A stretch of 64,000 nt of DNA from a virus. Shown here piece by piece: positions 4,307-54,531 of the stretch; position 1 is the stretch's first letter; the number at the start of each line of letters is the position of its first letter. The stretch lies in UHGV virus genome UHGV-1366603. One strand, given 5' to 3'. The notes below the pieces were generated by a model. It did no database searches and was not told the DNA's origin. It saw only the letters and a list, made by a program, of their open reading frames with translations. The position numbers were made by a program, and so were the translations under genes.

Positions 4307-4332
4307 TCAGATATATATTACCTAGAGGAGAG
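4307..4332 (+). promoter_or_regulatory. Copy 1 of recurring promoter-like motif TCAGATATATATTACCTAG(A/G)GGAGAG
   Basis: Near-identical motif also at 8362, 40079 and 44424, always upstream of a + strand gene and followed by a short hairpin. Confidence 0.5.
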
Positions 4333-8361: not shown

Positions 8362-8387
8362 TCAGATATATATTACCTAGGTGAGAG
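8362..8387 (+). promoter_or_regulatory. Copy 2 of recurring promoter-like motif
   Basis: TCAGATATATATTACCTAGGTGAGAG followed by inverted repeat gtgagag...ctctcac (8381-8402). Confidence 0.5.
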
Positions 8388-14725: not shown

Positions 14726-14757
14726 TACCCTCCTGCTAAGCAGGAGGGTATTTATTA
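14726..14757. terminator. Bidirectional intrinsic terminator between convergent genes
   Basis: Hairpin taccctcctg-ctaa-gcaggagggta flanked by T-rich sequence on both strands. Confidence 0.65.
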
Positions 14758-39084: not shown

Positions 39085-40050
39085 TTAGCGTGGGCCTGAA
39101 GTTGGGCCATGTACACCGTCGTGGATGTGTACGCTGAAGGTAATACCGGAAATCACCGCATCCTTAACTGTAAAGACACCCACACCTTCACCCGTACCAC
39201 CGTATTTGAAGTTCTTAGCAACTTCCAAATTACCGGTGAACATCGCTTCATTACCCTCTTGCTTAAAGTTCGGCGTTTTATACGTTGTGGAACCGGAGGC
39301 TTCGGTTAGCCACGTTTCTGTTTTAAAGGTAACCGATTTCGACGCTTCGGTATTCCGAACTTCGCATTTCTCATTAATCGTTTTCGTTTCCAGGTTAATC
39401 GAACGTTTTGCGTAAATGAACGCATCTTCTTTGTTGATGTTCACTTTCGAGAGCATCGCGTTCTCAAAACCTAAATCGTCTTCCACCGAGTTAATGTAAT
39501 ACTTATTCCCTTTATGGTCAACGCACTGCCACGACCCGTTAGCGTTATCGAATTGGAATAACCACGCCGCTTTCTCCCCGTTCACCATACTTGTTCTTAG
39601 GGTAACGTGTTTGTCAATCGTTGAGACGTTTAACACATACGCGTTCGACAAGTCATCCGCCATCTGGTTTTCAGGGTCAGCAGACCACGCGTAAACCGCA
39701 TCCTCTAATCGCTTAACGTTAGCGAAATTCAAATCAATCCAAAAATAAATATCGGTTTGCCCTAGACGTAGCAAGATAACATAATCTTCACGCTTAACGT
39801 CTGGGGAATTAATTCGATTGGAATTAAACTTCCACCACTTTGCGGTAATCGTGTTACCGGTTTTAATCGTTAGGTTGTCGGTAGCACCCCCGGCTTCGTG
39901 TACCTTTTCAGCGGTTGAGGAAACTGACTGTACAACGGTAGGGTTCGCAAAGTTGGTTTCAATGGGAATAACACTCACCCGATCCGTACCACGAGGTTTA
40001 TCTTCCGCGACGATACCAATCGAGAAAAAGTCAACGCTGGATTTCTCCAT
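39085..40050 (-). CDS. Hypothetical protein (321 aa), possibly structural
   Basis: Long ORF with beta-rich composition; no recognisable motif. Confidence 0.5.
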   Translation of the reverse strand: MEKSSVDFFSIGIVAEDKPRGTDRVSVIPIETNFANPTVVQSVSSTAEKVHEAGGATDNLTIKTGNTITAKWWKFNSNRINSPDVKREDYVILLRLGQTDIYFWIDLNFANVKRLEDAVYAWSADPENQMADDLSNAYVLNVSTIDKHVTLRTSMVNGEKAAWLFQFDNANGSWQCVDHKGNKYYINSVEDDLGFENAMLSKVNINKEDAFIYAKRSINLETKTINEKCEVRNTEASKSVTFKTETWLTEASGSTTYKTPNFKQEGNEAMFTGNLEVAKNFKYGGTGEGVGVFTVKDAVISGITFSVHIHDGVHGPTSGPR

Positions 40051-40078: not shown

Positions 40079-40130
40079 TCAGATATATTTTACTTAGGTG
40101 AGTAGGGGCTGAAGTGCGAATTCAGCCCCT
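40079..40130 (+). promoter_or_regulatory. Copy 3 of recurring promoter-like motif plus downstream hairpin
   Basis: TCAGATATATTTTACTTAGGTGAG followed by inverted repeat aggggctgaa-gtgcgaa-ttcagcccct. Confidence 0.45.
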
Positions 40131-40438
40131 ATGGGCACGTTTCTTTCGAAACGGAGTTACCATGTGATTAGGAGACAGACCAATGTCTACTGAGAAGAAA
40201 AGCGGATTGGACGAAGTCATCGAATTGTTCAAACGCTACAACCCGGCTATTCCTCGGTAATCATAGTATTACTTAAAATTTACAGATTGTCCCTTTATTC
40301 TGCTACTCGGGATACCGGTAGGGGGTAGGGGGCAATATGTATACGGATATAAATAGCGGAGGTATACGTAGTATACCGACATACTCTTCCCAGAGGAACG
40401 TAGTGACTTCCTTATTCCTTTTTAGGAGAATAAACCTC

Positions 40439-41173
40439 ATGAGAGAATTATTAGACGATATCTTTACCAACACCAGTTTAGAACTTTCTTCTACAGTGGT
40501 TAACGAACTAATAAAACAATCGCAACCTGCTAAGTTAGTCACTGTCAGGGTAGTTAACCCTAAAGATTATCTAGGCTGCGATATCATAAACGGTACGATC
40601 GATGAGTACGCAATTGGTATTTACGCCGACTGGGTCTTCTTTGTTCTTAATACCGAAACCGGTGTCATGTTAACCTACACGATGAGTAGTGATGTCGAAC
40701 ACGAAGTTGTAGCGAAACATATTCGCCACATTGCCAGCACGCCTACCTTTTCCGACGTTACGTTTATTGGGGGAAGCACTATGCTGACGTTATTCTCTTA
40801 CTTCCCACTGTTTAGACATGGGGTAGGGTTAATCAAGCATGTAGAAAACCTTCCCGCTGATGTAGAATTAACGTTGCTCGGTCGGGACATTAGTCTTTAT
40901 CCCTTAAAAGATAACGGTAAGTTATACGGTTTACGTATCTATGTTTCTTGGTTAGAGGGATACCGCGTTATTGAACTGATTGCATCGGATTTAACAAAAC
41001 AAATCCCAGAGGTGGAAACGATTTCTAAAGCCACCCACCTGGTTGAGATTAACCCAGACGATCCGTTTTTACAGTATCACAATGAAATTGCCCTTCGTGG
41101 TATCGCTGCCGTAAAAGGGTGGGGGTGTGCTGAGATTACGAAGGGGTATCTGCTGTTAATTAAAACCGCGTAA
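40439..41173 (+). CDS. Hypothetical protein, member 1 of a tandem four-gene paralog family
   Basis: Start at ATG 40439 (RBS aggag). Shares C-terminal G-W...G..LLF-type motif with the next three genes (weakest in this member). Confidence 0.5.
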   Translation: MRELLDDIFTNTSLELSSTVVNELIKQSQPAKLVTVRVVNPKDYLGCDIINGTIDEYAIGIYADWVFFVLNTETGVMLTYTMSSDVEHEVVAKHIRHIASTPTFSDVTFIGGSTMLTLFSYFPLFRHGVGLIKHVENLPADVELTLLGRDISLYPLKDNGKLYGLRIYVSWLEGYRVIELIASDLTKQIPEVETISKATHLVEINPDDPFLQYHNEIALRGIAAVKGWGCAEITKGYLLLIKTA

Positions 41174-41198
41174 GTAAAAACCTAAAGGAGAAAATATC

Positions 41199-41753
41199 AT
41201 GTTTCAAACTGAACTGAAAATTGAAATTATCCAAACCCTTGAAAAAGGCGTAGGCGAACATTTCTTTAGCTGTCCTTATACCGTACTGACCAATACCATT
41301 ATTCAGCCAGGCGCGATGATAGTAGGGGTGAGGGTACAAGCTGTGGAGGAAACCCCGCTGCGTCGCAACATCACTCGTAAAAACCATATCCCATTTAGAA
41401 CGGGTTTTACAGATTACTTTCAGAGCTTACTGAAAGATAGCGTTTGGAAAACGGGCAGCTTCTTCCACGAAGGGAAGACGTCCACGCTGGTTTATAAAGA
41501 AAATACCAAGTATCTGGTTGATTTTCTCTTAGCGCGGCAATACGATTTCTTTCCATCCCCTTCTGGCACCACCCCTGATAATCCAGGTAAGTTATTAAAC
41601 CAAGACGAAGCCGAAGCACTCTTTACAAAACTTCGGAATGAGCAGTGCGATGTTGACGACTGGGAAACATTGATCGCGGTCGCTAAAGCCCACGGTTGGT
41701 ATACTGTACGTAAACTCGGCCAGCAGTTGTTGTTCTTAGCTTATAATGTTTAA
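41199..41753 (+). CDS. Hypothetical protein, tandem paralog family member 2
   Basis: RBS aaaggag; C-terminus AHGWYTVRKLGQQLLFLAYNV. Confidence 0.5.
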   Translation: MFQTELKIEIIQTLEKGVGEHFFSCPYTVLTNTIIQPGAMIVGVRVQAVEETPLRRNITRKNHIPFRTGFTDYFQSLLKDSVWKTGSFFHEGKTSTLVYKENTKYLVDFLLARQYDFFPSPSGTTPDNPGKLLNQDEAEALFTKLRNEQCDVDDWETLIAVAKAHGWYTVRKLGQQLLFLAYNV

Positions 41754-41781
41754 GTAACGAAAACCCTAAAGGAGAGTAAAA

Positions 41782-42933
41782 ATGCGAAATATTATTTCTA
41801 AACCAGGACATGTCAAAATCCTAAAAGAACTGATGGACAGATGCTATAATCAGACTTGGCCTCTGCCAAGCTTAACCATCGAGTCTTCATTACAACGTGA
41901 GTTGTTTGGTTATAACTTGGGCTGCTGTGTACTTACTGAATACAATGAGATTATCGCGCCTGTCGATATCTGTACTTACGATGAAGAAATTGAAGGTTAC
42001 AAGTTCGCGGTTTACACAAATTCTGGACTAAATTACCGTAAACTCGTTGTTAGAGAAAAGAGTAGCAACCGGAAGATTATGTTTAAAGTCTTCCCAAGTG
42101 GTAAAGTCAGTAATTTATGTTTTCAGCTTGAGCAAGTGCCCTTTCACGGTGCGGACATTTTAACTAAACCAGAACTCGCGTTATTAAGCGGGTTAATCGG
42201 CTTTGAAGCAAAAACCATCAAAGTTGAGCAGGAACTTACACAAAACGATTTCGGCTCAAGTTGGTACGAAAGTTTCTTCCGCTACGAAATGTTAAGTGAT
42301 AAAGCTATCAAACTCACTTACCGTTCTACCGACGATCTCGTTTACCACATTTTAATTAGCGGCGAACCCCACCTGATTATTGAAGACAAAGGAGAAAATC
42401 AAATGTCTGCCTTAAAAGACGAATTAGCCCAATTCATTCGTGACGTTGAAGAGAAAAGCAAGAGCGATCATATTTTCTCACAACGCTATCCTGAACTTAT
42501 TGACGAAACCACCGATAGTGTTGTCGATGGTATACGCATTTTCCCAAGTGGTCTTGCAATTTACCGACTGCCTAGCGTTAACCAGCTTAAAGTCATGGAA
42601 ATGCTAAAAGACGTTTTAGCAGAAGCGGGTTGGGAATATCGCTTCGATTGCAATTTCGAAGGGATGGCGTTATTCGTTACAAAGAAAAACTATACCTTGT
42701 CAATCGATCTGCCTAAAAGTCAATACTACAGTTTCTTCCCAAAAGCGTATGACCGCACTGAAAAAGAACCTGCGATGTTACTTGATGCGGCAGAATCCAA
42801 TACGTTAATGATGCATTTGCGGTCAATTGACAAAAAGTTAAATACTAGTCATTTAACGACGATCGGTAAAGATTACGGTTGGAAATCTGTCGAACCGTAC
42901 GGCAGTCAGCTGCTGTTTGTTGCTGACCTTTAA
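41782..42933 (+). CDS. Hypothetical protein, tandem paralog family member 3
   Basis: RBS aaaggag; C-terminus DYGWKSVEPYGSQLLFVADL. Confidence 0.5.
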   Translation: MRNIISKPGHVKILKELMDRCYNQTWPLPSLTIESSLQRELFGYNLGCCVLTEYNEIIAPVDICTYDEEIEGYKFAVYTNSGLNYRKLVVREKSSNRKIMFKVFPSGKVSNLCFQLEQVPFHGADILTKPELALLSGLIGFEAKTIKVEQELTQNDFGSSWYESFFRYEMLSDKAIKLTYRSTDDLVYHILISGEPHLIIEDKGENQMSALKDELAQFIRDVEEKSKSDHIFSQRYPELIDETTDSVVDGIRIFPSGLAIYRLPSVNQLKVMEMLKDVLAEAGWEYRFDCNFEGMALFVTKKNYTLSIDLPKSQYYSFFPKAYDRTEKEPAMLLDAAESNTLMMHLRSIDKKLNTSHLTTIGKDYGWKSVEPYGSQLLFVADL

Positions 42934-43000
42934 TAAGTGAAAATACACTTTCTCTAACTGCCGCGCTTTAGTCGCGGCTTTTGTTAAGAAGGAAATAGAA

Positions 43001-43774
43001 ATGAAAGTCCATTTAGACGATATCTTTAAAACCGAACCGTATATGATCGAAGGTCCGCTAACGTCCCTACTATTCGCCGATAGACTAGATCGTACGTTGC
43101 AATTACAATCGGTCGAATCTGCACCGATTAACGATGTAGAGCGCTACGAGCGTATCAACCATACGCGGGGTGAGTATCGTCGCTATAAGCCAAACTCACT
43201 AACCATCAAACTTTGGAAAGTAAGCACAGGTAAAGTATTAACTTATCGCGCCGTTGGTAGTTATTACATTCAACAGGCCAAAGAGTGGTTAGAAAAAGTT
43301 AAAGAACTGAACTTCGATCTACTGAGCAAAAAACTGCGCGATCATAACGCCAGTTTGCCGATACGTAATTATTTCGCCACGATTGAAAATAGTCGTTGCT
43401 TCGTTTCCAGCAAGTCTATGATCTTACCCGGGGCTGATGTTCAAACAACACTGAAAGATGTGGTTGTGAAGAAAATCTTTCATGAATCTGAACACGTTGG
43501 ATTTCGTATCTATTTAACGCACAAGAGGCCATTTACCGTGATTCATGTTGTTACCGCACCCGAAGGCTCAGCAGTCGTACGTGAACTTCCTGACGCACGT
43601 GACCGCAGCCCTAATGAGCCGCTTTACTTAATGTCAGGAACAAAATCAGAATCTTTGATGTCCCGTTACAGCATGGTTGATGTTGTTGATACTGCTATGA
43701 AGTTAGGTTGGAAAGAAGTACAGCAGCACGGCAAACAATTGCTGTTTATCGCAGATGTAAATCTCAATAACTAA
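43001..43774 (+). CDS. Hypothetical protein, tandem paralog family member 4
   Basis: C-terminus KLGWKEVQQHGKQLLFIADV. Confidence 0.5.
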   Translation: MKVHLDDIFKTEPYMIEGPLTSLLFADRLDRTLQLQSVESAPINDVERYERINHTRGEYRRYKPNSLTIKLWKVSTGKVLTYRAVGSYYIQQAKEWLEKVKELNFDLLSKKLRDHNASLPIRNYFATIENSRCFVSSKSMILPGADVQTTLKDVVVKKIFHESEHVGFRIYLTHKRPFTVIHVVTAPEGSAVVRELPDARDRSPNEPLYLMSGTKSESLMSRYSMVDVVDTAMKLGWKEVQQHGKQLLFIADVNLNN

Positions 43775-43786
43775 AGAGGTGGTACC

Positions 43787-44365
43787 GTGTACCGATTAAT
43801 AGAAATGAGAAAAGACGTTTGGTTGGAAAACCTCGTCGATGGGGAGCTTGAGGGAATAGAGCTTTCCTTACCAGAGAGAGCGGACACGGTATTGGCCTTT
43901 CTGGTAAAACAGGCAGACCGTGAACCGGTAGGAATCTTCACTGTGGACTATAAAGATCCACGAGGAATTCATTTACGGAACATTTGCAGTGGTTTGGAAA
44001 ACTTACCGGCTAATCCGTTCTTAAACTACGCAAAACGTAAACTCCAAACGGGACAACACCTCTGGGTAACGTTATCGCCTGACGTTAGGATCATACGTGA
44101 CGATTACTCGGCGTTTGTACAGGCAACGAAAGTCAGTCTGTATAACCCGAACGCAGAGCGTACCGATATGCCGTTTATAATTACCTTAGAAGACGATGGA
44201 ACGCAAGAAGGTATTGAGGCAATTACGGAATTAGTAAATTCTTATCCGGTTGCCACTATTGAGTTAGAAAACCCAAACCGATTACCGTTGGGTGACCTGC
44301 TCGAATGGATCGAACTGAATACAGAATTCTTAATCAATTCTCGTCAGTATCGATTCGACGTTTAA
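43787..44365 (+). CDS. Hypothetical protein
   Basis: GTG start with RBS aagaggtgg; 192 aa; followed by terminator. Confidence 0.45.
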   Translation: MYRLIEMRKDVWLENLVDGELEGIELSLPERADTVLAFLVKQADREPVGIFTVDYKDPRGIHLRNICSGLENLPANPFLNYAKRKLQTGQHLWVTLSPDVRIIRDDYSAFVQATKVSLYNPNAERTDMPFIITLEDDGTQEGIEAITELVNSYPVATIELENPNRLPLGDLLEWIELNTEFLINSRQYRFDV

Positions 44366-44369
44366 CAAC

Positions 44370-44400
44370 GGTGGGGTGTAAGCCCCACCTTTTATTTTTT
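44370..44400 (+). terminator. Intrinsic terminator
   Basis: Hairpin ggtgggg-tgtaa-gccccacc followed by a T-run. Confidence 0.7.
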
Positions 44401-44423
44401 GTTCGCTAACATTAAAAATAATC

Positions 44424-44449
44424 TCAGATATATATTACTCAGGTGAGAG
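44424..44449 (+). promoter_or_regulatory. Copy 4 of recurring promoter-like motif
   Basis: TCAGATATATATTACTCAGGTGAGAG followed by an imperfect inverted repeat; precedes the secreted-protein array. Confidence 0.5.
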
Positions 44450-44494
44450 TTAAGATTAACTCTTTTACTTGTTAACCCCACGAGGAGCAAAACA

Positions 44495-44956
44495 ATGAAA
44501 ATCTTCACTTCCTTTTTAATCGCCCTTTTCGCAATCGGATTCAATACTGCACACGCCGCAATCAATAGCTGGGAACAACTACCGAACCCAGGTCAGACTG
44601 TTTACGAAATTGAAGACACCGCCGGAAACGGACTGTCTATCAACTGTGACACTGAAACTGCGAATCGCAAATTTTACGGTCGTATGGTTTGGTATTACGG
44701 GGAACCTGTAGGTGCAACTAACGCTGAAGACAACACGATGGATATCGTCGTAAATGGCAAAACCTACAACATCCCTACGGTGGATGGCAGTGACAAAGCA
44801 GAGCTCGCTTGGGTGGCTTTCGTTAACGCTATCGGTAACGCCAAAACTTTCAGTGTGAACATCAATGGTAACGAAGCTGCTAACTTTACCGTAGAAGGCG
44901 AACGTCTGTCTGAAACTTTCTTCCAGAACTGTGGACACACCCGTCCTAACAAATAA
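44495..44956 (+). CDS. Small secreted protein 1 (signal peptide)
   Basis: MKIFTSFLIALFAIGFNTAHAA; two Cys in mature part. Confidence 0.55.
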   Translation: MKIFTSFLIALFAIGFNTAHAAINSWEQLPNPGQTVYEIEDTAGNGLSINCDTETANRKFYGRMVWYYGEPVGATNAEDNTMDIVVNGKTYNIPTVDGSDKAELAWVAFVNAIGNAKTFSVNINGNEAANFTVEGERLSETFFQNCGHTRPNK

Positions 44957-44978
44957 GTAATAATCTTTTTTAGAGTGC

Positions 44979-45371
44979 GTGAAAATGAATATCAGAACTA
45001 TACTTTATTCAATCATTATTTTCTGTGCAATCGGTATTACTGGCACTTATGCTTTCGGCGATTCGGACGTCCGCCATTACGAACCGGCTCCTGACTCGCC
45101 CATTATCAACCCGGATGAGTCCCCTACGTTAATGCGCAGTTTCGGTAAACTGCAAGTTTATCGCTTAGTACGTGGTGAAACGTGTACCGGATTACTCATT
45201 GCTGACACCCGTGCACAGGTCTACCAACGTCTGACGGATATCGCCTGCGAACAACCAAAAGTCATGTCGGTCAGTATTCATCCGTTAGAGGTCGGTAACT
45301 ATACTGCTGTGGACTTCTTCCATAATGCAGAACTGATTGGTCGTATCACTTTAAATCGTAGCGCTGAATAA
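44979..45371 (+). CDS. Small secreted protein 2 (signal peptide)
   Basis: GTG at 44979 or ATG at 44985; hydrophobic ILYSIIIFCAIGITGTYA N-terminus. Confidence 0.5.
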   Translation: MKMNIRTILYSIIIFCAIGITGTYAFGDSDVRHYEPAPDSPIINPDESPTLMRSFGKLQVYRLVRGETCTGLLIADTRAQVYQRLTDIACEQPKVMSVSIHPLEVGNYTAVDFFHNAELIGRITLNRSAE

Positions 45372-45389
45372 TTTAATGGAGAATTTACA

Positions 45390-45872
45390 ATGAAACGTTT
45401 ACACACCCTGATGCTTTTCGTGGCTATTCTGTTCACAGGCTTTACCTTTAACACAGAAGCGGCTACCGTAAAACAAGCACTTAGCTGTAACCCGGAAGCC
45501 TGGGCTGAACAACCTGGTGCGTGTCCTGACATCAATACGCTCTATACCGACGACGCGACTTATAAAGCCGCAATCGATAAAGCGTTGAAACCTGTCGGAC
45601 TAGACGGGTTATTCGGTAAAGATGGTGTAATGAATGGTCCTGGCGGCGATGTTATTCCCGTGCAAATCAACGGTAAAGTCTGGCTTGAGTCTACCGCTTG
45701 CAAAAGCAATGCTTGTGGTTGGGAATACATCACGACGCTTTATAACCCGCAGACCCATGTCGTGGTAGGTTACTATTACAACGTCGACCCAGGTTACCTG
45801 GTCTGGTTCGGCGATATCGGCGTTAACGAATTCGCCTATCTGGTTAAGAAATACGTAGCTACGGTTAATTAA
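45390..45872 (+). CDS. Small secreted protein 3 (signal peptide)
   Basis: MKRLHTLMLFVAILFTGFTFNTEAA; four Cys in mature part. Confidence 0.55.
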   Translation: MKRLHTLMLFVAILFTGFTFNTEAATVKQALSCNPEAWAEQPGACPDINTLYTDDATYKAAIDKALKPVGLDGLFGKDGVMNGPGGDVIPVQINGKVWLESTACKSNACGWEYITTLYNPQTHVVVGYYYNVDPGYLVWFGDIGVNEFAYLVKKYVATVN

Positions 45873-45887
45873 TTTAAGGAGTCTGTC

Positions 45888-46298
45888 ATGAAAACGTTTA
45901 TCAAAACTTTACTCGTTGCTGTAACTGTTCTGTTCTCTCTTAACGTAGCAGCAAAAACAATAAAGCTACCGGCGGGTATCAAATACGTCAACAGTACCGA
46001 TGAATTCTACTGCACTGAAATTGACGGCCTGTATTGCCAGACAAAGAATTTGTTTGAATACAAAGGTAACAGATATGTTTTCGTTGTTGAGCAAGGTGGT
46101 GCCTGGTGCTACGACAGCCCTATGTCGGTACTCAACCTGGAAACTTGGAAAGCACAGAAAATTGAATACAAAGACAACCAACTGTGTTCAGGCGAAAACA
46201 AACCGTTCTTCAAAATCAAAAATGGTGTGCCGACTGTAGGTATTATCGACACCTCTGGAGCACCCATCGTTGTAGCTCAGGACAAACTTAAAATCTAA
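45888..46298 (+). CDS. Small secreted protein 4 (signal peptide)
   Basis: MKTFIKTLLVAVTVLFSLNVAAK; four Cys. Confidence 0.55.
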   Translation: MKTFIKTLLVAVTVLFSLNVAAKTIKLPAGIKYVNSTDEFYCTEIDGLYCQTKNLFEYKGNRYVFVVEQGGAWCYDSPMSVLNLETWKAQKIEYKDNQLCSGENKPFFKIKNGVPTVGIIDTSGAPIVVAQDKLKI

Positions 46299-46308
46299 GG
46301 AGTAAACC

Positions 46309-46698
46309 ATGCGTCTTATCTGCGCTTTGTTGGCGTTTTTCTCAATCGGAGTTATGGCTTCTACACACATCGACGATTTATTACTTACCCCGGCAACGAA
46401 CACAGACTATCACTACAACCCACCGGGTTTTGAAGTCTGCGAAGGCGATGCAGGCGAATGCCAAGAAGTTGGCGCAGATGGACGCTATATACTCGTAAAA
46501 GCAGACGGCGGGACAACCTGCCCTGCGGGTTATTATTTCGTACTTGACGCTGTAGCAAAAGAGGTACTTCCTGTAACGACCAAAACGTGTGACCCCACAG
46601 TTGTACTAACGCTTGCGAAAAGCAAATCACGTGACCGCCATCTTATCGTCATCGAAGAACGCGGTGAGATGCTAGGCGCTATCGAATTAGATTACTGA
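46309..46698 (+). CDS. Small secreted protein 5 (signal peptide)
   Basis: MRLICALLAFFSIGVMAS; Cys pairs CEGDAGEC and CPAG...C. Confidence 0.55.
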   Translation: MRLICALLAFFSIGVMASTHIDDLLLTPATNTDYHYNPPGFEVCEGDAGECQEVGADGRYILVKADGGTTCPAGYYFVLDAVAKEVLPVTTKTCDPTVVLTLAKSKSRDRHLIVIEERGEMLGAIELDY

Positions 46699-46710
46699 TG
46701 TGTAGTCTTG

Positions 46711-46747
46711 ACCCCGGTTCGTGCCGATTCGTCCGGGGTCCTTTTTA
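46711..46747 (+). terminator. Intrinsic terminator
   Basis: Hairpin gaccccgg-(15 nt loop)-ccggggtc followed by ttttt. Confidence 0.65.
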
Positions 46748-46777
46748 CGACCTGTTTTACCTAAAGGAGAATTAAAA

Positions 46778-47254
46778 ATGCGTTTATCTAATGTTTATCA
46801 AGCGGCCCAATTCCATCACGAACTGACGGCTAAGCCTGAATATATTCGCCACAACTTAACGGTGGCTTGGAAACTGCTATTGATTGCTGACGCAGCACGG
46901 CACAACGACCAGGAAACTATTATCAAAACCGTGCGTACTTTACGCCCTATTGACCTGGAAACAATTTGGTCGTTTGACTTAATTCGAATTTATCATCGTC
47001 GTTTTAATGCGGCGGTGGATGCGATACGTCCTTATTTCCACTATTTGCAAGCAACATCAGACTGTGGTCCATCCTTAGAGTGGGTCTTGGTACAAAGCGT
47101 ATGGAGCGATTACATTTATCTCCTATCTTTAGAGACGGGTGAATGCATTATCGCTAACGAGGTATTCTCAACCAACGCTGAAATGTATCGTTCCCACGCT
47201 ACTATCCAGGGTGTCTCACAGCCTATCTTATCACTCACGCACTTAGGGCTGTGA
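46778..47254 (+). CDS. Hypothetical protein
   Basis: Start trimmed to ATG 46778 (RBS aaaggaga) because the track's 46721 start lies inside the terminator hairpin. Confidence 0.5.
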   Translation: MRLSNVYQAAQFHHELTAKPEYIRHNLTVAWKLLLIADAARHNDQETIIKTVRTLRPIDLETIWSFDLIRIYHRRFNAAVDAIRPYFHYLQATSDCGPSLEWVLVQSVWSDYIYLLSLETGECIIANEVFSTNAEMYRSHATIQGVSQPILSLTHLGL

Positions 47255-47261
47255 TTAGCCC

Positions 47262-47289
47262 GGCCCCGCTGTGTACGGGGCTTCTTTTT
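47262..47289 (+). terminator. Intrinsic terminator
   Basis: Hairpin gccccg-ctgtgta-cggggc followed by T-run. Confidence 0.7.
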
Positions 47290-47308
47290 TGCCCAAGGAA
47301 ACTGAAAC

Positions 47309-47917
47309 ATGAACGAAATTACTTTGGTTCGTTTTATTGAAGCGATGCATCTAAACGAAGCTAATCCGCACTCTCCGTTATTCATCGATTTAATGGAGGA
47401 AGAAGTCGAAGGGTTCTTAGCGTACCCGCGTTTGAAAGACTACTTCGAACGTAAAACACCAACCGCTTACGAAAAGCTGATGTACGCGTTAGATAACCGT
47501 ACTACGCTAAACAATACGCCGTTTAAAGCGCTGGAAGCAATAGACCCTACCGGGGGTGCAGGTATCCCACAACGTGTTGTGTTCTACTACATCGACAACG
47601 GACGTATTAAAGCCGACGTTGTAAACTGGATCTCCGAAGGGGAAATCCCAGAAACGCGTACTTTTAACCTCTGTCCGGTAGAAGAAGGTTGGGTTGCAGG
47701 AACGCATTATTCCTATCCGTATCAAAGCATCAAATCACCTTATCTGTATCCGGTGTATTTAGATGACGTTACGCCAGGGAAATGTATTCCCGTTACCAAT
47801 CTGATTTGTTTACTGACGATGGAAGTTGTTGCGTCGGACGCAGGCCAGGCTTGGGTTGAGCAATCGAAGAATATCCAAAACTGGCAGGAGATGGGTTACA
47901 AACTCTATCAGCCGTAA
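47309..47917 (+). CDS. Hypothetical protein
   Basis: 202-aa ORF with RBS aaggaaa; no phosphoesterase (Mre11/SbcD) motifs seen. Confidence 0.5.
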   Translation: MNEITLVRFIEAMHLNEANPHSPLFIDLMEEEVEGFLAYPRLKDYFERKTPTAYEKLMYALDNRTTLNNTPFKALEAIDPTGGAGIPQRVVFYYIDNGRIKADVVNWISEGEIPETRTFNLCPVEEGWVAGTHYSYPYQSIKSPYLYPVYLDDVTPGKCIPVTNLICLLTMEVVASDAGQAWVEQSKNIQNWQEMGYKLYQP

Positions 47918-47924
47918 TACCACG

Positions 47925-47974
47925 AGAGAACCTTCGGGTTCTCTCCCTTCTCTTTTATTTTTTTTTCTTTTTAC
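47925..47974 (+). terminator. Intrinsic terminator
   Basis: Hairpin gagagaacc-ttcg-ggttctctc followed by a T-run longer than 15 nt. Confidence 0.75.
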
Positions 47975-48002
47975 ACCACGCTCCGTGAATATGGAGGTGG
48001 AC

Positions 48003-50507
48003 ATGTTAAAAGTTGAACGTATTGTACTTAAAGGATTTACCGGAATGGGATTACACGAAATCGAAACCTTCGATTTTACTATCCATTCCCCGACCACCAT
48101 TATCCTCGGTGGTAACGGGTGCGGTAAGACCAGCTTACTGTCCGTGTTTCTACCTATCGCACCTTCGAAATCCGAATTCCGTGACGGGGGTTCTTACACC
48201 AACATCTGTTTGGTTAACGACCATCGTTACAAATTTAAGGTTGCACGTAAAGGCAACTCACTGGTTTGCGATATCGAGAACCTGACGACGGGTACCAAAA
48301 TCGTCGAACAAGGTAATGCGAAAGTGTATAACTCTCGTGTAGAAGAAATCACGGGCATTACAAAAGAGATTAAAGAGTTACTGAACGGAGAAGTGCTTTT
48401 AACGGATGCAGGAACGGAGCTGCGTCGTAAGTGGTTCTACCGTTTAAGTACGTCAGACTTAACTTACGCGTTAGGTTTTTATCAACGTTTACGAAAAAAC
48501 CTGACGATGCTAAACGGTGGTATTGAAATCACCAGCCGTAAAATTGCAGAGTTGCGTACCCGCGTAATTGATAACGAGGAAGAACGTCAGCAGTTAGCAA
48601 CACGGTTAAAAGCATTAGAAGTAGATTTACGTGAACTCAACAAACAGATTGAACAACTGCCTGGTCTGAATCGTGACGTTACGGTGGCAACTATTCAATC
48701 GCTATTGCTTAAAATCGAAGCACCGATTAATGCTATCTTGGAACACCGTGGCGGATTACCTACGGAAGAACAGGTAGAGGAAGCACGACGGATTGAAGCC
48801 ACTGCCCGTGAAGCGGTGGTCTCTGCTGAAACAGAACTATCCATGCTAAACAAAGATTTGTCTTTGTTGATGGACGAGTCCACTCGCCAAGATTACCTGA
48901 TGCGGAATCACGAGGGGTTAAAAAACACGGTTGCGAAACTGCGCGAGTTATTAAAGCAGTGGGACACTGAGCATCTTTTCCCTGAACTGTTTGCGGAGAC
49001 CGTTAACATCGACCAGCTTAAAGCAGCGACGGATGCGCGTGTCTGGGGACAACGTTTAGGAACAACGCTGGATGCTATTAAATCAACGGAACGGTTGAAC
49101 GTACTGGAAGAGAAACTGTTGACCTTAGACCAAAACTCATCTGGGTTGCGTGACCGGTTACAACGCGTTGAAAACGTATTGCAGAACCTCAACCACGAAC
49201 GGAATCACTATTTGGAAACTGCCGAGGTTGATTGTCCGCAGTGTCAATTTAAATTCCGTCCGGGTGTCCGTCGATCGCTGCCTGAATTGGAAGAAGCCAT
49301 TCGTGGTCAGATGGAGCAACGTAATACGTTACAGACTCAACTTGATTCCGTATTGCGAGACCGTACGGAATTAGAGTCAGACGTTAATTACATGCGTCAA
49401 GTACGGGAAATTGTTTTAACATACTCGAAAGACCCGGTATTGAGCTTGTTCTTTAAACGACTCCAGGAGCGGAATGTCTTTACGGATAACCGTAGTCAGT
49501 TTGGTAGTTTGTGCGCAGAGTTTGATCGTGAACTTTATTCTGCAATTGAGTACCACGAAACGAAACACCGTTTCGCTAAAGCGGAAAAAGAGTGGGAAAA
49601 TGCAGTTGCAGCGGTAGGTAACGTTGACGGTGCACTACAGCAGAAAATTGCCTTCCAGCAGGAACGTTTGGGTAAGGCAACAGAAACGCTCTCAGAGCGC
49701 CGTAGAGAGCACGCAGTTGCTAATGATACCTTTTGTTATCTAAACGAACTTAAAGCCACTGTAGACAATTTTAATGCGGTTTTTGAGCGTTTAGAGAACG
49801 ATGTTAAGGTAACATTAACCAACACGGTGGTCGAAACGTTATTAAACGCCCGAGAAAACAAGTTGGATGCGTTCACCACAGCACGGGAACGGTACCGTCA
49901 GATGGAAAACGAACTCAACCAACTTACTGCGTTAGAAAAGGAGTTATCAGATTTACAAGCGCAGCAATTCAATAACAAGCTGATGATTCAAGCGTTCTCA
50001 CCTGAGAAAGGGGTATTACGCAAATACTTCTACAACGCTATCGTGAGAATCACGGAATTGATGACGCGGTATATCGAACAAGTCTGGACCTACCCTATGC
50101 GGGTCATGCCGTGCGACTTAACCGACGGTGACTTAGACTACACGTTCCCAGTGCAGTTGAAAACCCATCCTGAGCCGGTACCTGACGTGCGGAAAGGGTC
50201 GAAAGCGCAGCGAGCCATCTTTAATTTGATGTTTCGTTTAACCGCTTACAAAGCCCTGAAACTTCATCAGTATCCGCTACTGTTGGATGAACCGTCAGAA
50301 GGGATGGATGAGGAACACCGAAATAACCTCGTCGGGTTTATTAAAACCCTGGCGAATTCCGGTGAGTTCTCTCAGTTACTGGTGGTATCTCACGAAGCAG
50401 AAATTCATTCAAAACTTAACGAAGCCGCATACTGTGTTATTGAACCTGAAGGCGTAACACTGCCTGCGGTATACAACGAGGGAGTAAAAATTGTCTACGC
50501 AAACTGA
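48003..50507 (+). CDS. SbcC/Rad50-like SMC-family ATPase
   Basis: Start trimmed to ATG 48003 (RBS ggaggtgg). Walker A GGNGCGKTS; long central coiled coil with CPQC zinc-hook-like motif; C-terminal LLLDEPSEGMDEEH (Walker B) and VVSHE. Confidence 0.7.
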   Translation: MLKVERIVLKGFTGMGLHEIETFDFTIHSPTTIILGGNGCGKTSLLSVFLPIAPSKSEFRDGGSYTNICLVNDHRYKFKVARKGNSLVCDIENLTTGTKIVEQGNAKVYNSRVEEITGITKEIKELLNGEVLLTDAGTELRRKWFYRLSTSDLTYALGFYQRLRKNLTMLNGGIEITSRKIAELRTRVIDNEEERQQLATRLKALEVDLRELNKQIEQLPGLNRDVTVATIQSLLLKIEAPINAILEHRGGLPTEEQVEEARRIEATAREAVVSAETELSMLNKDLSLLMDESTRQDYLMRNHEGLKNTVAKLRELLKQWDTEHLFPELFAETVNIDQLKAATDARVWGQRLGTTLDAIKSTERLNVLEEKLLTLDQNSSGLRDRLQRVENVLQNLNHERNHYLETAEVDCPQCQFKFRPGVRRSLPELEEAIRGQMEQRNTLQTQLDSVLRDRTELESDVNYMRQVREIVLTYSKDPVLSLFFKRLQERNVFTDNRSQFGSLCAEFDRELYSAIEYHETKHRFAKAEKEWENAVAAVGNVDGALQQKIAFQQERLGKATETLSERRREHAVANDTFCYLNELKATVDNFNAVFERLENDVKVTLTNTVVETLLNARENKLDAFTTARERYRQMENELNQLTALEKELSDLQAQQFNNKLMIQAFSPEKGVLRKYFYNAIVRITELMTRYIEQVWTYPMRVMPCDLTDGDLDYTFPVQLKTHPEPVPDVRKGSKAQRAIFNLMFRLTAYKALKLHQYPLLLDEPSEGMDEEHRNNLVGFIKTLANSGEFSQLLVVSHEAEIHSKLNEAAYCVIEPEGVTLPAVYNEGVKIVYAN

Positions 50508-52170: not shown

Positions 52171-52695
52171 ATGCTTACCTCACTCGGTAAGACCGTTATG
52201 CTAACGATACTTCCAGAATCGGTTATTGACAACGACCTGTTTAACGCCCCTGAGCGCTTCAAGGTCGTTACGATAAATTGCGTAGGGGCAATGGGTCGGG
52301 GTATCGCTTTAGCGTGCAGAGAACGCTATCCTGGGCTTTATCAGGACTACCGGGAACGTTGCTTCGCTAACGAAATACGAATAGGGAATGTGTACGTTTA
52401 TCCCGAGGAAAACTGCATTCTCTTACCAACCAAAACACATTGGAAACTAAAATCCCAGGTTTCTTATGTTATCGCGGGTATCACCGCGTTGGCAGATGCC
52501 GCAGAAAACTTAGAGGGTGGGGTGGCTTTACCGCCGTTAGGGATGGCTAACGGTTGGTTGACAAAAGCTGAACGTCAACAAATCTTTTTGTTTATCGAAA
52601 AGAAACTCGTACCGAGGAGACAACATTACCGTTTCTATTTACCCGATACGCTTTATCAAGAAGCAAAACCTTTAATTCCAAACCTTTTTAAATAG
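52171..52695 (+). CDS. Hypothetical protein, possible macro-domain-like (ADP-ribose binding/processing) fold
   Basis: VVTINCVGAMGRGIALACRERYPGLY resembles the N-x-V/G-x-M-G-x-G-I-A stretch of some macro-domain families; recognition from memory only. Confidence 0.35.
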   Translation: MLTSLGKTVMLTILPESVIDNDLFNAPERFKVVTINCVGAMGRGIALACRERYPGLYQDYRERCFANEIRIGNVYVYPEENCILLPTKTHWKLKSQVSYVIAGITALADAAENLEGGVALPPLGMANGWLTKAERQQIFLFIEKKLVPRRQHYRFYLPDTLYQEAKPLIPNLFK

Positions 52696-52795
52696 ATATT
52701 ATCATTAGGGCACACAACAAAGGAGTTCCAGCTGTCCGCGCCGTGATTTCGTTCTACGGAACACGGAAATGTATAAATCCAACTGGAGAACTAGT

Positions 52796-53482
52796 ATGTT
52801 TCGTATTTTCTTTCTTTTACTGGTAACACTTTTCGCGTTTAACGCATACGCATCCAAATCCGCACCCAGTGCCAAACACCATCGTGAATTCGAAATGATT
52901 CAAGACCGTTTCGAACGTGTAAAACCGTTGATTGTGGAAATCTCCCGAAAGCAGGGCGTCGATCCTAAGTTGATGACCACGCTAATCTATCGGGAATCGC
53001 GGTTTAATCCGAAGGCGTATAATCGAACGTCTAAAGCGCACAGTCTGGTTCAGATGCTACCGAGCACAAAGCGTAATTTGCTAAAACTCTACGGTGCCGA
53101 AATCGGACTTAGTCGTAACGCGGATTTGTATAATCCTCGTAATGCGGTGCTATTGGCTTCCGTCTACGTTAAACATTTAGAAAAGGGGTTGACTAAACGA
53201 CTCAAACGCAAGCCCACTATTGCAGAAATTGCATTGGCTTATCACTGGGGTGAAAGTGGTGCACACGCCAGGATTAAAAGCAAGTCTCGGGCAGCACAAC
53301 GAGAAATGGCGAGCTTTATGAAAGATGCAACGTTCTACAGTGCGAAAATCGACAAGCCTGTAGCATCTCGTCAGCTTGCGTTTGCGAAGAAACCAGAACG
53401 CCAGATTCAGTTAGCGGAAGTTAACCGAATTTGGGATACGATAAACACCAGTTTTCCATTTAAACAAGGAGTCACCCTTTGA
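52796..53482 (+). CDS. Lytic transglycosylase (SLT domain) with signal peptide
   Basis: Start at ATG 52796 (RBS ggaga). Signal peptide MFRIFFLLLVTLFAFNAYA; catalytic-region pattern LIYRESRFNPKAYN...AHSLVQMLPST...AYHWGE typical of SLT-type transglycosylases. Confidence 0.7.
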   Translation: MFRIFFLLLVTLFAFNAYASKSAPSAKHHREFEMIQDRFERVKPLIVEISRKQGVDPKLMTTLIYRESRFNPKAYNRTSKAHSLVQMLPSTKRNLLKLYGAEIGLSRNADLYNPRNAVLLASVYVKHLEKGLTKRLKRKPTIAEIALAYHWGESGAHARIKSKSRAAQREMASFMKDATFYSAKIDKPVASRQLAFAKKPERQIQLAEVNRIWDTINTSFPFKQGVTL

Positions 53483-54051: not shown

Positions 54052-54531
54052 ATGTTGAAGTTTATCTGGCGTTACCCAACCCGCTTTTGGTTCGTGGTAT
54101 TAGAGGTAATCACCGTTTTACTGTTAGTGACGTTCGTAAACGCCTCTACGAAACAAATGGTGATTTTCTGTGTATTCGTGGCTATACCGCTGTGGGTGTT
54201 TGCAAAGATTATTAAGTTTTACATGATAAGCTGGGCGAACTACACCTGTCCATTTAAACCCAGAGAAATCATGAACTGGTTGATGTATATCGAAGACCGT
54301 TTACCCGCTCAGTCTAAAACGTTAGGTTGGCAATCGATGTTGGATATTGCGCTAGAAACAAACGCAAAATTCCCTGGGTCAAAGAATCCTTATTTGCTGC
54401 TGGCTGTTATTGTTGCCCAGCAGAAACGTGCAGGCGAACGTTGGTTACCGAAAGAAGCGAAAGAGTATATTCGTAAACATCCGAAGGCTTTCTATTCCGT
54501 AGGTCAATGGCGTAACCTCCCACTCTTTTAA
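54052..54531 (+). CDS. Hypothetical membrane protein
   Basis: Two hydrophobic segments (FWFVVLEVITVLLLVTFV; MVIFCVFVAIPLWVFAKII); RBS aaaggag. Confidence 0.5.
   Translation: MLKFIWRYPTRFWFVVLEVITVLLLVTFVNASTKQMVIFCVFVAIPLWVFAKIIKFYMISWANYTCPFKPREIMNWLMYIEDRLPAQSKTLGWQSMLDIALETNAKFPGSKNPYLLLAVIVAQQKRAGERWLPKEAKEYIRKHPKAFYSVGQWRNLPLF

What the first reader, a model, noticed from the sequence alone, without database searches (positions are those of the whole stretch)
44495..46698. Tandem array of five small secreted Cys-containing proteins
Five consecutive genes encode 129-160-aa proteins, each with a clear N-terminal signal peptide and 2-4 Cys in the mature part, bracketed by a promoter-like motif upstream and a terminator downstream. 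A dedicated transcription unit of periplasm-targeted small proteins in a virulent phage suggests envelope-directed functions such as superinfection exclusion, receptor masking, or inhibition of periplasmic host enzymes or defences.
Basis: partly seen in the sequence, partly recalled or inferred. Interest (0 to 1): 0.65.

Follow-up and report, generated by a model that had tools for sequence, protein, structure and literature searches.

The report
Jumbo-phage operon of exported periplasmic proteins
A giant phage carries an apparently early-expressed operon of five small exported proteins, one shaped like a bacterial lysozyme inhibitor, and it shares these genes with common E. coli genomic islands, where a preprint links one of them to a block on phage T7; the operon most likely protects the infected cell's envelope from rival phages.

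Summary
Five consecutive + strand genes (44495-46698) each encode a 129-160 aa protein with a classical signal peptide and an even number of mature cysteines (2, 2, 4, 4, 4). The genes sit between two terminators, behind a phiKZ-type early promoter (TATATTAC).

They are not five paralogs but four families:
- p1 belongs to the YfjT family of E. coli cryptic prophage CP4-57.
- p2 corresponds to SPN3US gp180.
- p4 and p5 are paralogs in one four-cysteine superfamily, together with SPN3US gp181-183.

The SPN3US homologues are absent from the virion proteome.

p1, p3, p4 and the gp181 type have homologues at one fixed slot of CP4-type islands in E. coli, Yersinia, Hafnia and Photorhabdus. The p3-p4 pair lies in the same order in E. 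coli islands, at 85% and 70-74% identity. The p3 gene occurs in 2333 of 5426 complete E. coli genomes.

A preprint reports that CRISPRi knock-down of the E. coli O121 ORF holding the p3 homologue raises T7 plating from 0 to about 1. I matched its guide RNA to that ORF.

Best reading: an early periplasmic exclusion cassette, with p3 inhibiting peptidoglycan-cleaving enzymes. The function is inferred, not shown.

The parts
44370..44399 (+). Intrinsic terminator closing the upstream gene (43787-44365): an 8-bp G+C-rich stem followed by a T-run.
   Evidence: dG -16.7 kcal/mol, z -3.75, 0 of 200 shuffles as stable
44424..44449 (+). Promoter motif TCAGATATATATTACTCAGGTGAGAG, holding the phiKZ-type early (virion RNA polymerase) element TATATTAC.
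   Evidence: The window holds 4 copies (4307, 8362, 40079, 44424) against 0 expected. The same motif lies upstream of the cassette in SPN3US, SPAsTU, pEa_SNUABM_29, phiEaH2, Huxley and contigs L019-L024. It matches the phiKZ and 201phi2-1 promoter consensus (PMC7058600 Table 2; review PMC7598289).
44445..44466 (+). Conserved leader hairpin (GAGAGTTAA...TTAACTCTC) just after the promoter core. Its role is unknown.
   Evidence: The fold is not significantly more stable than shuffles (z -1.55). Its sequence is conserved in relatives.
44495..44956 (+). p1, 153 aa. Signal peptide ...AHA|AINS; 2 conserved Cys (C51, C146). Member of the YfjT family (the CP4-57 prophage protein).
   Evidence: BLASTP against E. 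coli K-12 YfjT gives E=3e-14 at 26% identity. p1 is 77% identical to an ORF in contig L024 that carries a precomputed PF27224 (YfjT) hit. Family alignment A5. phrog_3429 E=1.3e-6. No tblastn hit in 50,697 phage records.
44979..45371 (+). p2, 130 aa (128 aa if it starts at ATG 44985). Signal peptide ...TYA|FGDS; 2 invariant Cys (C69, C90). Same family as SPN3US gp180. Fold and function unknown.
   Evidence: phrog_9424 E=1.7e-41. Found in 53 phage records, all SPN3US-, phiEaH2- or Machina-like. Alignment A4. No relative in Pfam, PDB or PADLOC.
45390..45872 (+). p3, 160 aa. Signal peptide ...TEA|ATVK; 4 invariant Cys, two of which close the loop C104-K-S-N-A-C109. A divergent Ivy-fold protein, and a candidate inhibitor of peptidoglycan-cleaving enzymes.
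45888..46298 (+). p4, 136 aa. Signal peptide ...VAA|KTIK; 4 invariant Cys. Same family as SPN3US gp182 and a paralog of p5.
   Evidence: phrog_8968 E=3.7e-37. hhalign F4-F5 93%, F4-F85 97%. p4 is 70-74% identical to the 136-aa gene that follows the p3 homologue in E. coli islands, but only about 35% identical to SPN3US gp182.
46309..46698 (+). p5, 129 aa. Signal peptide ...VMA|STHI; 4 invariant Cys (C44, C51, C71, C94); motif GGxxCPAGYYFVLD. Same family as SPN3US gp183.
46710..46747 (+). Terminator-like hairpin (GACCCCGG...CCGGGGTC) followed by CUUUUU, closing the operon.
   Evidence: dG -20.6 kcal/mol, z -2.56. The simple scan missed it because its loop is longer than 8 nt.

Best explanation
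The region is one operon of a SPN3US-like jumbo phage. It is driven by a phiKZ-type early promoter, so it is probably transcribed by the virion RNA polymerase soon after injection.

Its five products are exported by the Sec pathway, their signal peptides are removed, and they fold in the periplasm with one or two disulfide bonds each. They are not virion parts.

The cassette is modular:
- The conserved core is p2, p4 and p5 (SPN3US gp180, gp182, gp183). In this lineage the p4 allele is itself closer to E. coli island genes than to other jumbo phages.
- Two accessory genes, p1 (YfjT family) and p3 (Ivy fold), also come from a pool shared with CP4-57/CP4-44-type genomic islands of Enterobacterales.

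Proposed mechanism (inferred): the proteins make the envelope of the infected cell refractory to other phages. p3 would use its disulfide-closed loop, as Ivy does on lysozyme, to plug the active site of peptidoglycan-cleaving enzymes that incoming virions need in order to cross the wall. T4 Spackle does this to the gp5 lysozyme. The other four would be binding proteins aimed at further envelope or virion targets.

Status of each step:
- Shown here: gene structure, signal peptides, conserved cysteines, family assignments, synteny, sharing with islands, and absence of the homologues from SPN3US virions.
- Taken from a preprint: the T7 block linked to the island homologue.
- Inferred: export, early timing, the target, and the exclusion phenotype of the phage genes.
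For: 1. Predicted export with an even number of conserved Cys in all five proteins and in all their homologues.

2. An early-promoter motif heads the operon in this phage and in every relative examined. It matches the published phiKZ and 201phi2-1 early-promoter consensus. T4 Spackle is likewise an early periplasmic protein (PMC7677548).

3. SPN3US gp180-183 are absent from purified virions.

4. p3 resembles Ivy in sequence and in fold:
- Three independent sequence methods point to Ivy, with CKSNAC aligned on CKPHDC.
- Foldseek: the top 8 hits are all Ivy.

5. Ivy and MliC partially inhibit E. coli lytic transglycosylases in vitro (PMC10139938).

6. Homologues of p3 and p4 sit as an adjacent pair in E. 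coli islands. The O121 ORF hypo_04657 has an Ivy-like domain with loop CKANTC. Its guide RNA matches the p3-homologue ORFs exactly. Its knock-down raises T7 plating efficiency from 0 to 1.0-1.5.

7. Phage and island alleles are interleaved. Window p3 is 85% identical to one island allele but only 62-63% to the other phage allele. The island copies have phage-like GC of 41-49%, against 57% for the neighbouring gene. This indicates repeated exchange of a function useful to both kinds of element.

8. All five genes are under purifying selection.
Against: - No function was tested for any phage protein.
- p3 falls below Pfam's Ivy gathering score, and its loop lacks the Pro, His and Asp of CKPHDC. 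The model is only moderately confident (pLDDT 62.8), and the loop itself scores below 50.
- The T7 result is from a preprint. It used CRISPRi, which is polar, so the p4 homologue or genes further downstream could be responsible. The guide lies in a 5' extension of the ORF, not in the Ivy-like domain.
- No PADLOC defence model matches any of the proteins.
- p1, p2, p4 and p5 have no known fold or function.
- Early timing rests on a motif alone.
- The phage has its own exported SLT transglycosylase (52769-53482), which p3 might inhibit instead.
Confidence: 0.42

Rival explanations
1. Lysis-timing control. p3, and perhaps its neighbours, hold the phage's own Sec-exported SLT-domain transglycosylase (window 52769-53482, annotated as endolysin in relatives) inactive in the periplasm until lysis. 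Alternatively they protect the cell from lysis from without.
For: The window encodes a 237-aa SLT-domain protein (PF01464, E=4.4e-14) with an N-terminal signal or signal-anchor sequence. Ivy and MliC inhibit lytic transglycosylases in vitro (PMC10139938).
Against: The same endolysin, at 50-53% identity, is present in SPN3US-like and phiEaH2-like phages that lack p3. p3 homologues sit in E. coli islands that carry no phage lysis genes. An early promoter fits poorly with a late-acting partner. The cassette is not adjacent to the SLT gene.
Confidence: 0.15
2. Host cell-wall stabilisation. The cassette damps host autolysins (lytic transglycosylases such as MltB or Slt) and other periplasmic enzymes. 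This would keep the envelope intact during the long jumbo-phage cycle, with no effect on other phages.
For: The Ivy-like fold of p3. The known physiological link between Ivy and host lytic transglycosylases and envelope stress (PMC10139938).
Against: It does not explain why the island homologue is linked to a block on T7. It does not explain why the genes travel between phages and islands. The host already has its own Ivy.
Confidence: 0.13
3. Receptor or surface masking. The proteins bind outer-membrane receptors or LPS/O-antigen assembly components from the periplasmic side and so block adsorption of later phages, as T5 Llp blocks FhuA.
For: In the PHAGEPACK screen the knock-down of hypo_04657 behaves like knock-downs of O-antigen, ECA and LPS genes such as wecA, galE and rfaH. 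The authors suggest a role at the cell surface.
Against: None of the five has a lipobox, so none is an Llp- or Cor-type lipoprotein (sequences). The Ivy fold points to an enzyme inhibitor. No homology to known receptor blockers in PHROGs.
Confidence: 0.12
4. The proteins are virion or assembly components, or the ORFs are not genuine secreted-protein genes.
For: The cassette lies next to tail and baseplate genes (39085-40050 is a baseplate assembly protein).
Against: SPN3US gp180-183 were not detected among 83 virion proteins. Signal peptides and cysteines are conserved. dN/dS is 0.04-0.24.
Confidence: 0.03

Closest known systems
Ivy (inhibitor of vertebrate lysozyme; E. coli YkfE; PDB 1GPQ, 1XS0, 1UUZ; Pfam PF08816), compared with p3
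   Same: Both are small Sec-exported periplasmic proteins. The order of secondary-structure elements is the same: N-terminal helices, a five-stranded sheet, then a C-terminal helix. A six-residue disulfide-closed loop beginning C-K lies between the second and third strands. Ivy structures are the best structural matches.
   Different: Sequence identity is about 16-23%, below Pfam's gathering score. The loop is CKSNAC, not CKPHDC, so the His that Ivy inserts into lysozyme is missing. (That role of the His is from my own knowledge of the 1GPQ complex.) p3 has an extra N-terminal Cys pair (C33-C45). It is encoded by a phage and by mobile islands rather than at the chromosomal ivy locus. Its target is unknown.
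E. coli O121 hypo_04657 and the O157 protein WP_000775497.1 (island-borne Ivy-like protein; PHAGEPACK preprint 10.1101/2024.04.20.590424)
   Same: True homologues of p3, at 73-75% identity over the 160-aa domain. They share the CK-x-N-x-C loop and are followed by a p4 homologue. The ORF is linked to a block on T7.
   Different: The bacterial ORF is annotated with a 65-aa 5' extension carrying a second signal-like segment. It sits between a patatin gene and a DUF932 gene in a CP4-44-type island, not in a phage operon.
T4 Spackle (gp61.3)
   Same: Same proposed logic: an early phage gene whose periplasmic product inhibits the peptidoglycan-cleaving domain of an incoming virion, giving superinfection exclusion (PMC7677548).
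   Different: There is no sequence relationship: no Spackle family appears among the PHROG hits. The fold appears different as well: I recall Spackle as helical, and p3 is an Ivy-type alpha/beta protein. Spackle is a single gene, not a five-gene cassette.
E. coli K-12 CP4-57 yfjS-yfjT module
   Same: p1 is a YfjT-family protein. The p4/p5 superfamily may be distantly related to the lipoprotein YfjS. In the islands these genes occupy the same slot as the p3, p4 and gp181-type homologues, upstream of DUF932, antirestriction and RadC genes.
   Different: YfjS is a lipoprotein with only two of the four Cys, and the link is weak (hhalign 71%). Neither YfjS nor YfjT has a known function.
SPN3US gp180-gp183 (RefSeq ACQ60_gp086 to gp083) and the phiEaH2 and Machina equivalents
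   Same: The locus is syntenic: the same flanking genes, the same promoter motif, and p2, p4 and p5 orthologues.
   Different: Those phages have no YfjT-type and no Ivy-type gene. At position 3 they carry a gp181-type paralog of p4/p5, or nothing at all in Machina-like phages.

Membership tests
Ivy (PF08816 / NCBIfam NF007443), tested on p3 | Score at or above the curated family threshold. | tested here: not met
   Pfam 15.1 bits against a gathering score of 21 (E=0.025). NCBIfam 19.9 bits against a cut-off of 180 for the equivalog model (E=5e-4). The E. coli homologues P0012 and P0010 are also below threshold.
Ivy (PF08816 / NCBIfam NF007443), tested on p3 | Ivy fold: a central antiparallel sheet flanked by helices. 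| tested here: met
Ivy (PF08816 / NCBIfam NF007443), tested on p3 | Disulfide-closed inhibitory loop CKPHDC. | tested here: not met
   The loop has the same position and length, and keeps both Cys and the Lys, but reads CKSNAC. Homologues read CKAHAC, CKANAC or CKANTC. The Pro, His and Asp are not conserved.
Ivy (PF08816 / NCBIfam NF007443), tested on p3 | Periplasmic location and inhibition of C-type lysozyme or lytic transglycosylase. | not testable with these tools
   A signal peptide is predicted by my own heuristic only. No biochemical test was possible.
YfjT (PF27224), tested on p1 | Sequence membership in the family typified by E. coli K-12 YfjT. | tested here: met
   BLASTP against K-12 YfjT gives E=3e-14. 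p1 is 77% identical to an ORF in L024 with a precomputed PF27224 hit. The W, G, INC, NAW and C-terminal Cys positions are conserved. The PF27224 model itself is missing from the local Pfam copy, because a YfjT protein scanned there returned nothing.
SPN3US gp180, gp182 and gp183 families (phrog_9424, phrog_8968, phrog_5248), tested on p2, p4 and p5 | A significant profile match together with syntenic position. | tested here: met
   E=1.7e-41, 3.7e-37 and 9.9e-31. tblastn hits and synteny.
Four-Cys superfamily gp181/gp182/gp183, tested on p4 and p5 | Mutual profile-profile similarity and four invariant cysteines. | tested here: met
   hhalign probabilities of 93-97% between the three subfamilies. 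C44, C51, C71 and C94 are invariant in 19 sequences. p2 and p3 do not join this superfamily (probability below 5%).
T4 Spackle and lipoprotein exclusion proteins (T5 Llp, Cor) | Sequence family membership; for Llp and Cor, a lipobox. | tested here: not met
   No such PHROG family is hit by any of the five. No L-x-x-C lipobox lies at the end of any signal peptide.
Known anti-phage defence systems (PADLOC-DB 2.0) | A match to any defence-protein model. | tested here: not met
   No family at E<=0.1 for p1-p5, the E. coli p3 homologue, the Yersinia gp181-type protein or the 180-aa neighbour.

The most novel reading that the evidence does not exclude
The phage cassette and the 'yfjS-yfjT slot' of CP4-57/CP4-44-type islands together form an unrecognised, widespread class of periplasm-acting entry-immunity modules. 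These would be small disulfide-bonded proteins of four or more families, traded between nucleus-forming jumbo phages and bacterial islands. They would block infection before DNA enters the cell. The Ivy-fold member would inhibit virion-borne peptidoglycan-cleaving enzymes, and the YfjT, gp180 and four-Cys families would act on other steps of envelope penetration. On this reading about 43% of E. coli genomes carry a phage-derived envelope defence that is currently annotated as 'hypothetical protein'.
Probability: 0.25. Interest if true: 0.8.

Novelty: new variant of a known kind. Interest (0 to 1): 0.62.

Why it matters
Nucleus-forming jumbo phages are known for shielding their DNA inside the cell. 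Much less is known about what they do at the envelope.

This operon would be their envelope-level counterpart to T4 Spackle and Imm. It would use an Ivy-type inhibitor fold, which I did not find in any of the 50,697 deposited phage genomes.

The same genes sit in islands present in about 43% of complete E. coli genomes, including O157 and O121. There they are unannotated, yet one is linked by a preprint to complete resistance to T7.

If the link holds, three things follow:
- It assigns a function to the y-genes yfjT and possibly yfjS.
- It explains a common determinant of phage host range that matters for phage therapy.
- It gives a defined, easily testable set of small proteins and candidate targets.

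Tried and rejected
- **Five paralogs.** Rejected. All-against-all BLAST and hhalign show that only p4 and p5 (with SPN3US gp181) are related. p1, p2 and p3 are separate families.
- **p4/p5 as Ivy-like**, suggested by the similar 'strand - Cys loop - strand' pattern. hhalign gives no support (0.4%).
- **Profile searches against PDB for the p1, p2 and p4/p5 families.** Nothing credible. A 'ThreeFoil' designed-protein hit (E=3.9e-5, no single stretch) and weak matches to antibody light chains are treated as spurious.
- **p2 linked to YfjS or p5.** An alignment covering both Cys exists, but it is not significant (E=0.042, probability 1.3%).
- **The 180-aa island protein upstream of the p3 homologue as a p5 relative.** Only the signal peptides align.
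- **tblastn of K-12 YfjS and YfjT against phages.** Nothing relevant.
- **Exhaustive HMMER search with p1.** Only 14 hits. The long ones (Ig and malectin proteins) are spurious.
- **Diversifying selection.** Not seen at whole-gene level (dN/dS 0.04-0.24). The uneven identity between related contigs is regional mosaicism that extends beyond the cassette.
- **Sigma-70 promoters.** No excess in the region: 2 found against 7.4 expected.
- **Searches that could not be run.** The afdb50 fold library was unavailable.
Full report
**Observation.** Five + strand ORFs lie head to tail at 44495-44956 (p1, 153 aa), 44979-45371 (p2, 130 aa), 45390-45872 (p3, 160 aa), 45888-46298 (p4, 136 aa) and 46309-46698 (p5, 129 aa). 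The gaps between them are 10-22 nt, and four of the five have strong Shine-Dalgarno sites. Each starts with a basic N-terminus, a 10-16 residue hydrophobic core and a small-x-small site: AHA|A, TYA|F, TEA|A, VAA|K, VMA|S. None has a further transmembrane-like segment. The mature parts carry 2, 2, 4, 4 and 4 cysteines. An even number of conserved cysteines is what disulfide-bonded periplasmic proteins would show. A crude signal-peptide heuristic of my own flags 10 of 76 gene-like ORFs in the window, and the five here are consecutive. The genes are under purifying selection, with dN/dS of 0.04-0.24 against four related contigs and against bacterial homologues. Export itself is predicted, not shown.

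**What genome this is.** Megablast finds only 73-77% identity, over about 2 kb, to Erwinia phages of the phiEaH2 group and to Salmonella SPN3US-like phages. The cassette region itself has no close DNA match. Gene order matches SPN3US: a baseplate assembly gene on the minus strand, then a run of + strand genes ending in the SbcC/SMC gene. IMG/VR holds five contigs of the same clade, 107-225 kb long. The four that extend through the region carry all five genes. A further 64-kb ENA contig (L024) carries six, because it has two YfjT-type genes.

**Transcription unit.**
- The upstream gene ends in a strong terminator at 44370-44389 plus a T-run.
- At 44424-44449 lies the motif TCAGATATATATTACTCAGGTGAGAG. 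With up to 3 mismatches it occurs four times in the window (4307, 8362, 40079, 44424) against 0 expected, always in front of + strand genes.
- Its core, TATATTAC, is the published promoter element of phiKZ and is embedded in the 201phi2-1 consensus (PMC7058600 Table 2). The review PMC7598289 states that such AT-rich conserved motifs upstream of early operons are the promoters of the virion RNA polymerase.
- The same motif precedes the cassette in SPN3US, SPAsTU, pEa_SNUABM_29, phiEaH2, Huxley and the metagenomic relatives.
- After p5 comes an 8-bp G+C-rich hairpin followed by CUUUUU, at 46710-46747.
- The five genes therefore form one unit. Early expression is inferred from the motif alone.

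**The proteins: four families, not one.** All-against-all comparison and profile-profile alignment show that only p4 and p5 are related to each other.

- **p1** belongs to the YfjT family.
  - It gives E=3e-14 against YfjT of the E. coli K-12 cryptic prophage CP4-57.
  - It is 77% identical to an ORF in L024 that carries a precomputed PF27224 hit.
  - It shares the family's conserved positions, including both cysteines.
  - The local Pfam copy lacks PF27224, which is why one search missed it.
  - Neither p1 nor K-12 YfjT has a tblastn match in 50,697 deposited phage genomes.
- **p2** (phrog_9424, E=1.7e-41) corresponds to SPN3US gp180 (locus tag SPN3US_0180). It is found in 53 SPN3US-, phiEaH2- and Machina-like phages. 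It has no match in Pfam, PDB or PADLOC.
- **p4** (phrog_8968) and **p5** (phrog_5248) correspond to SPN3US gp182 and gp183. Together with SPN3US gp181 they form one superfamily: hhalign probabilities are 93-97% and four cysteines are invariant across 19 sequences. An AlphaFold2 model of p5 was all-beta but poor (pLDDT 49.5), and the fold search gave nothing.
- **p3** is the most informative.
  - Pfam (E=0.025), NCBIfam (E=5e-4) and hhalign against K-12 Ivy (E=5e-4) all point to Ivy, the periplasmic inhibitor of C-type lysozyme. In each case p3's C104-KSNA-C109 aligns on Ivy's CKPHDC loop.
  - A moderately confident model (pLDDT 62.8) has the Ivy order of helices and strands.
  - p3 is nevertheless below Pfam's threshold, and the Pro, His and Asp of the loop are not kept.
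  - I therefore call it an Ivy-fold protein with a different loop, and hence probably a different target. I do not call it an Ivy family member.

**Not virion proteins.** In the SPN3US virion mass spectrometry (PMC5105663, Table S4) no product between gp173 and gp193 is listed. gp180-183 are therefore absent from purified particles.

**The shared gene pool with bacterial islands.**
- p3 has no homologue in deposited phage genomes, but it has 63-86% identical homologues in E. coli. The gene is present in 2333 of 5426 complete E. coli genomes, always annotated 'hypothetical protein'.
- It lies in CP4-44/CP4-57-type islands, between a dynamin-like/YjcZ/patatin block and DUF932-antirestriction-RadC-DUF987-CbeA/CbtA.
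- In O157 and in contig L023 the gene directly downstream is a 136-aa protein that is 70-74% identical to p4. SPN3US gp182 is only about 35% identical to p4. The p3-p4 pair is thus shared as a unit.
- The gp181 type, which sits at position 3 of the cassette in SPN3US- and phiEaH2-like phages, has a 73% identical homologue in a Yersinia rohdei island, next to a YfjT gene and upstream of DUF932. It also occurs in Hafnia paralvei and Photorhabdus akhurstii.
- K-12 CP4-57 has yfjS-yfjT in the corresponding region. YfjS may be a distant relative of the p4/p5 superfamily (hhalign 71%, E=3.8e-5). This link is weak.
- Phage and island alleles of p3 are interleaved. The window's p3 is 85% identical to one island allele and 73-75% to the O157 type, but only 62-63% to the allele in sister phage contigs.
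- The island copies have 41-49% GC, like the phage (45%) and unlike the adjacent DUF932 gene (57%). This suggests repeated transfer, probably from phage to island at least once. The direction is an inference.

**Experimental lead from the literature.** The preprint 10.1101/2024.04.20.590424 describes E. coli O121 'hypo_04657'. It has an Ivy-like domain with loop CKANTC, and the authors propose that it inhibits phage lysozyme. CKANTC is exactly the loop of the O157-type p3 homologues. The guide RNA used for clonal validation encodes G-E-Y-K-N-Y-S and matches the p3-homologue ORFs in L027 and L023 without mismatch. Hypo_04657 is therefore this gene. In their Table S6, T7 does not plate on O121 carrying a control guide (EOP 0), whereas the knock-down gives EOP 1.0-1.5.

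Three caveats apply:
- It is a preprint.
- CRISPRi is polar, so the p4 homologue may contribute.
- The guide lies in a 5' extension that looks like a remnant of another gene.

**Mechanism.** The best-supported model is an early periplasmic exclusion cassette. p3 would act like Ivy on lysozyme, using a protruding disulfide-closed loop to inhibit a peptidoglycan-cleaving enzyme that incoming virions need. The precedent is T4 Spackle, an early periplasmic protein that inhibits the lysozyme domain of the gp5 tail spike (PMC7677548). Ivy and MliC also partially inhibit lytic transglycosylases (PMC10139938). From my own knowledge, T7 gp16 carries such a domain for entry; this was not checked here. 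The roles of p1, p2, p4 and p5 are unknown, and I propose they bind other envelope or virion targets. My confidence in this model is about 0.4.

Rival explanations:
- Control of the phage's own exported SLT endolysin (52769-53482). This is weakened because phages lacking p3 have the same enzyme.
- Damping of host autolysins.
- Masking of receptors or the cell surface. The knock-down does group with O-antigen genes in the screen.
- Virion components, which is essentially excluded.

**Novelty.** The kind of system is known: a phage-encoded periplasmic protein that protects the envelope. New, as far as these searches show, are four things:
- an Ivy-fold protein in a phage;
- the five-gene modular cassette;
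- its conservation behind an early promoter across SPN3US-like jumbo phages;
- its shared gene pool with a fixed slot of CP4-type islands.

I rate it a new variant of a known kind, with interest of about 0.6.

Noticed in passing
window 52769-53482 (+): A 237-aa protein with an SLT lytic-transglycosylase domain (PF01464, E=4.4e-14; phrog_4067) and an N-terminal signal or signal-anchor sequence (MYKSNWRTSMFRIFFLLLVTLFAFNAYA|SK). Homologues in SPN3US-like and phiEaH2-like phages, at 50-53% identity, are annotated as endolysin or transglycosylase. It is a Sec-exported endolysin candidate and a possible partner of p3.
   Followed up: partly
window 4307-4332, 8362-8387, 40079-40104, 44424-44449 (+): Four copies of the 26-nt motif TCAGATATATATTACnnAGGTGAGAG, against none expected. 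Each lies in an intergenic region before + strand genes. They are probably early promoters for the virion RNA polymerase and mark at least four early operons in the window.
   Followed up: partly
L001 (SPN3US) about 5185-5275; likewise L002 and L010: In SPN3US, SPAsTU and pEa_SNUABM_29 the promoter motif is followed, before the first cassette gene, by a terminator-like hairpin (GGCTACCTTCGGGTAGCC plus a T-run). In the window the order is the reverse: terminator first, then promoter. This could be an attenuator or a terminator shared with the upstream gene.
   Followed up: no
L003, L004, L023, L027 (E. coli islands), upstream of the p3 homologue: A conserved block of dynamin-like GTPase (794 aa), a YjcZ/RdcB-family protein and a patatin-like phospholipase sits directly upstream of the p3/p4 homologues. 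It may itself be a defence module. PADLOC was not run on it.
   Followed up: no
L027 4806-5489; L023 6001-6672: The 223-227-aa E. coli ORF that holds the p3 homologue looks like a fusion. Its first 63 residues, which have their own signal peptide, are 51% identical to the start of a separate 180-aa gene seen in L003. The p3-like part then begins with its own Met and signal peptide. The true start codon and the topology are unclear.
   Followed up: partly
window 41782-42933 and 43001-43774 (+): These two neighbouring genes share a C-terminal domain (...GWK.V...G.QLLF.AD; phrog_26772 and phrog_33648) and so look like paralogs. Related contigs differ strongly here, with 62-95% identity.
   Followed up: no
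window 46721-47254 (+): The listed GTG start at 46721 overlaps the operon terminator. The ATG at 46778, preceded by AAGGAG, is the more likely start, giving 158 aa as in the related contigs.
   Followed up: partly
window 14755-15234 (-); 54052-54531, 58196-58699 and 58703-59158 (+): Further ORFs with signal-peptide-like or membrane-like N-termini. 14755-15234 has a lipobox-like LASC and matches phrog_9559. 58196-58699 has a hydrophobic mature part. All match PHROGs of unknown function.
   Followed up: no
window 40337-50507 compared with L019, L021, L022: Identity to sister contigs is strongly mosaic from gene to gene, ranging from 44% to 99%. There is a break between p2 (about 95%) and p3 (about 64%) in L021 and L022, which suggests frequent recombination in this arm of the genome.
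   Followed up: partly
alignment A2 (p4/p5/gp181 superfamily): A profile search of PDB gave one unexplained hit, to the designed beta-trefoil 'ThreeFoil' (3pg0, E=3.9e-5, with no single stretch passing). It is probably an artefact of that protein's internal repeats.
   Followed up: no
window 52171-52692 (+): A weak, sub-threshold match to the Macro domain (PF01661, E=0.0014, 19 bits against a gathering score of 22).
   Followed up: no
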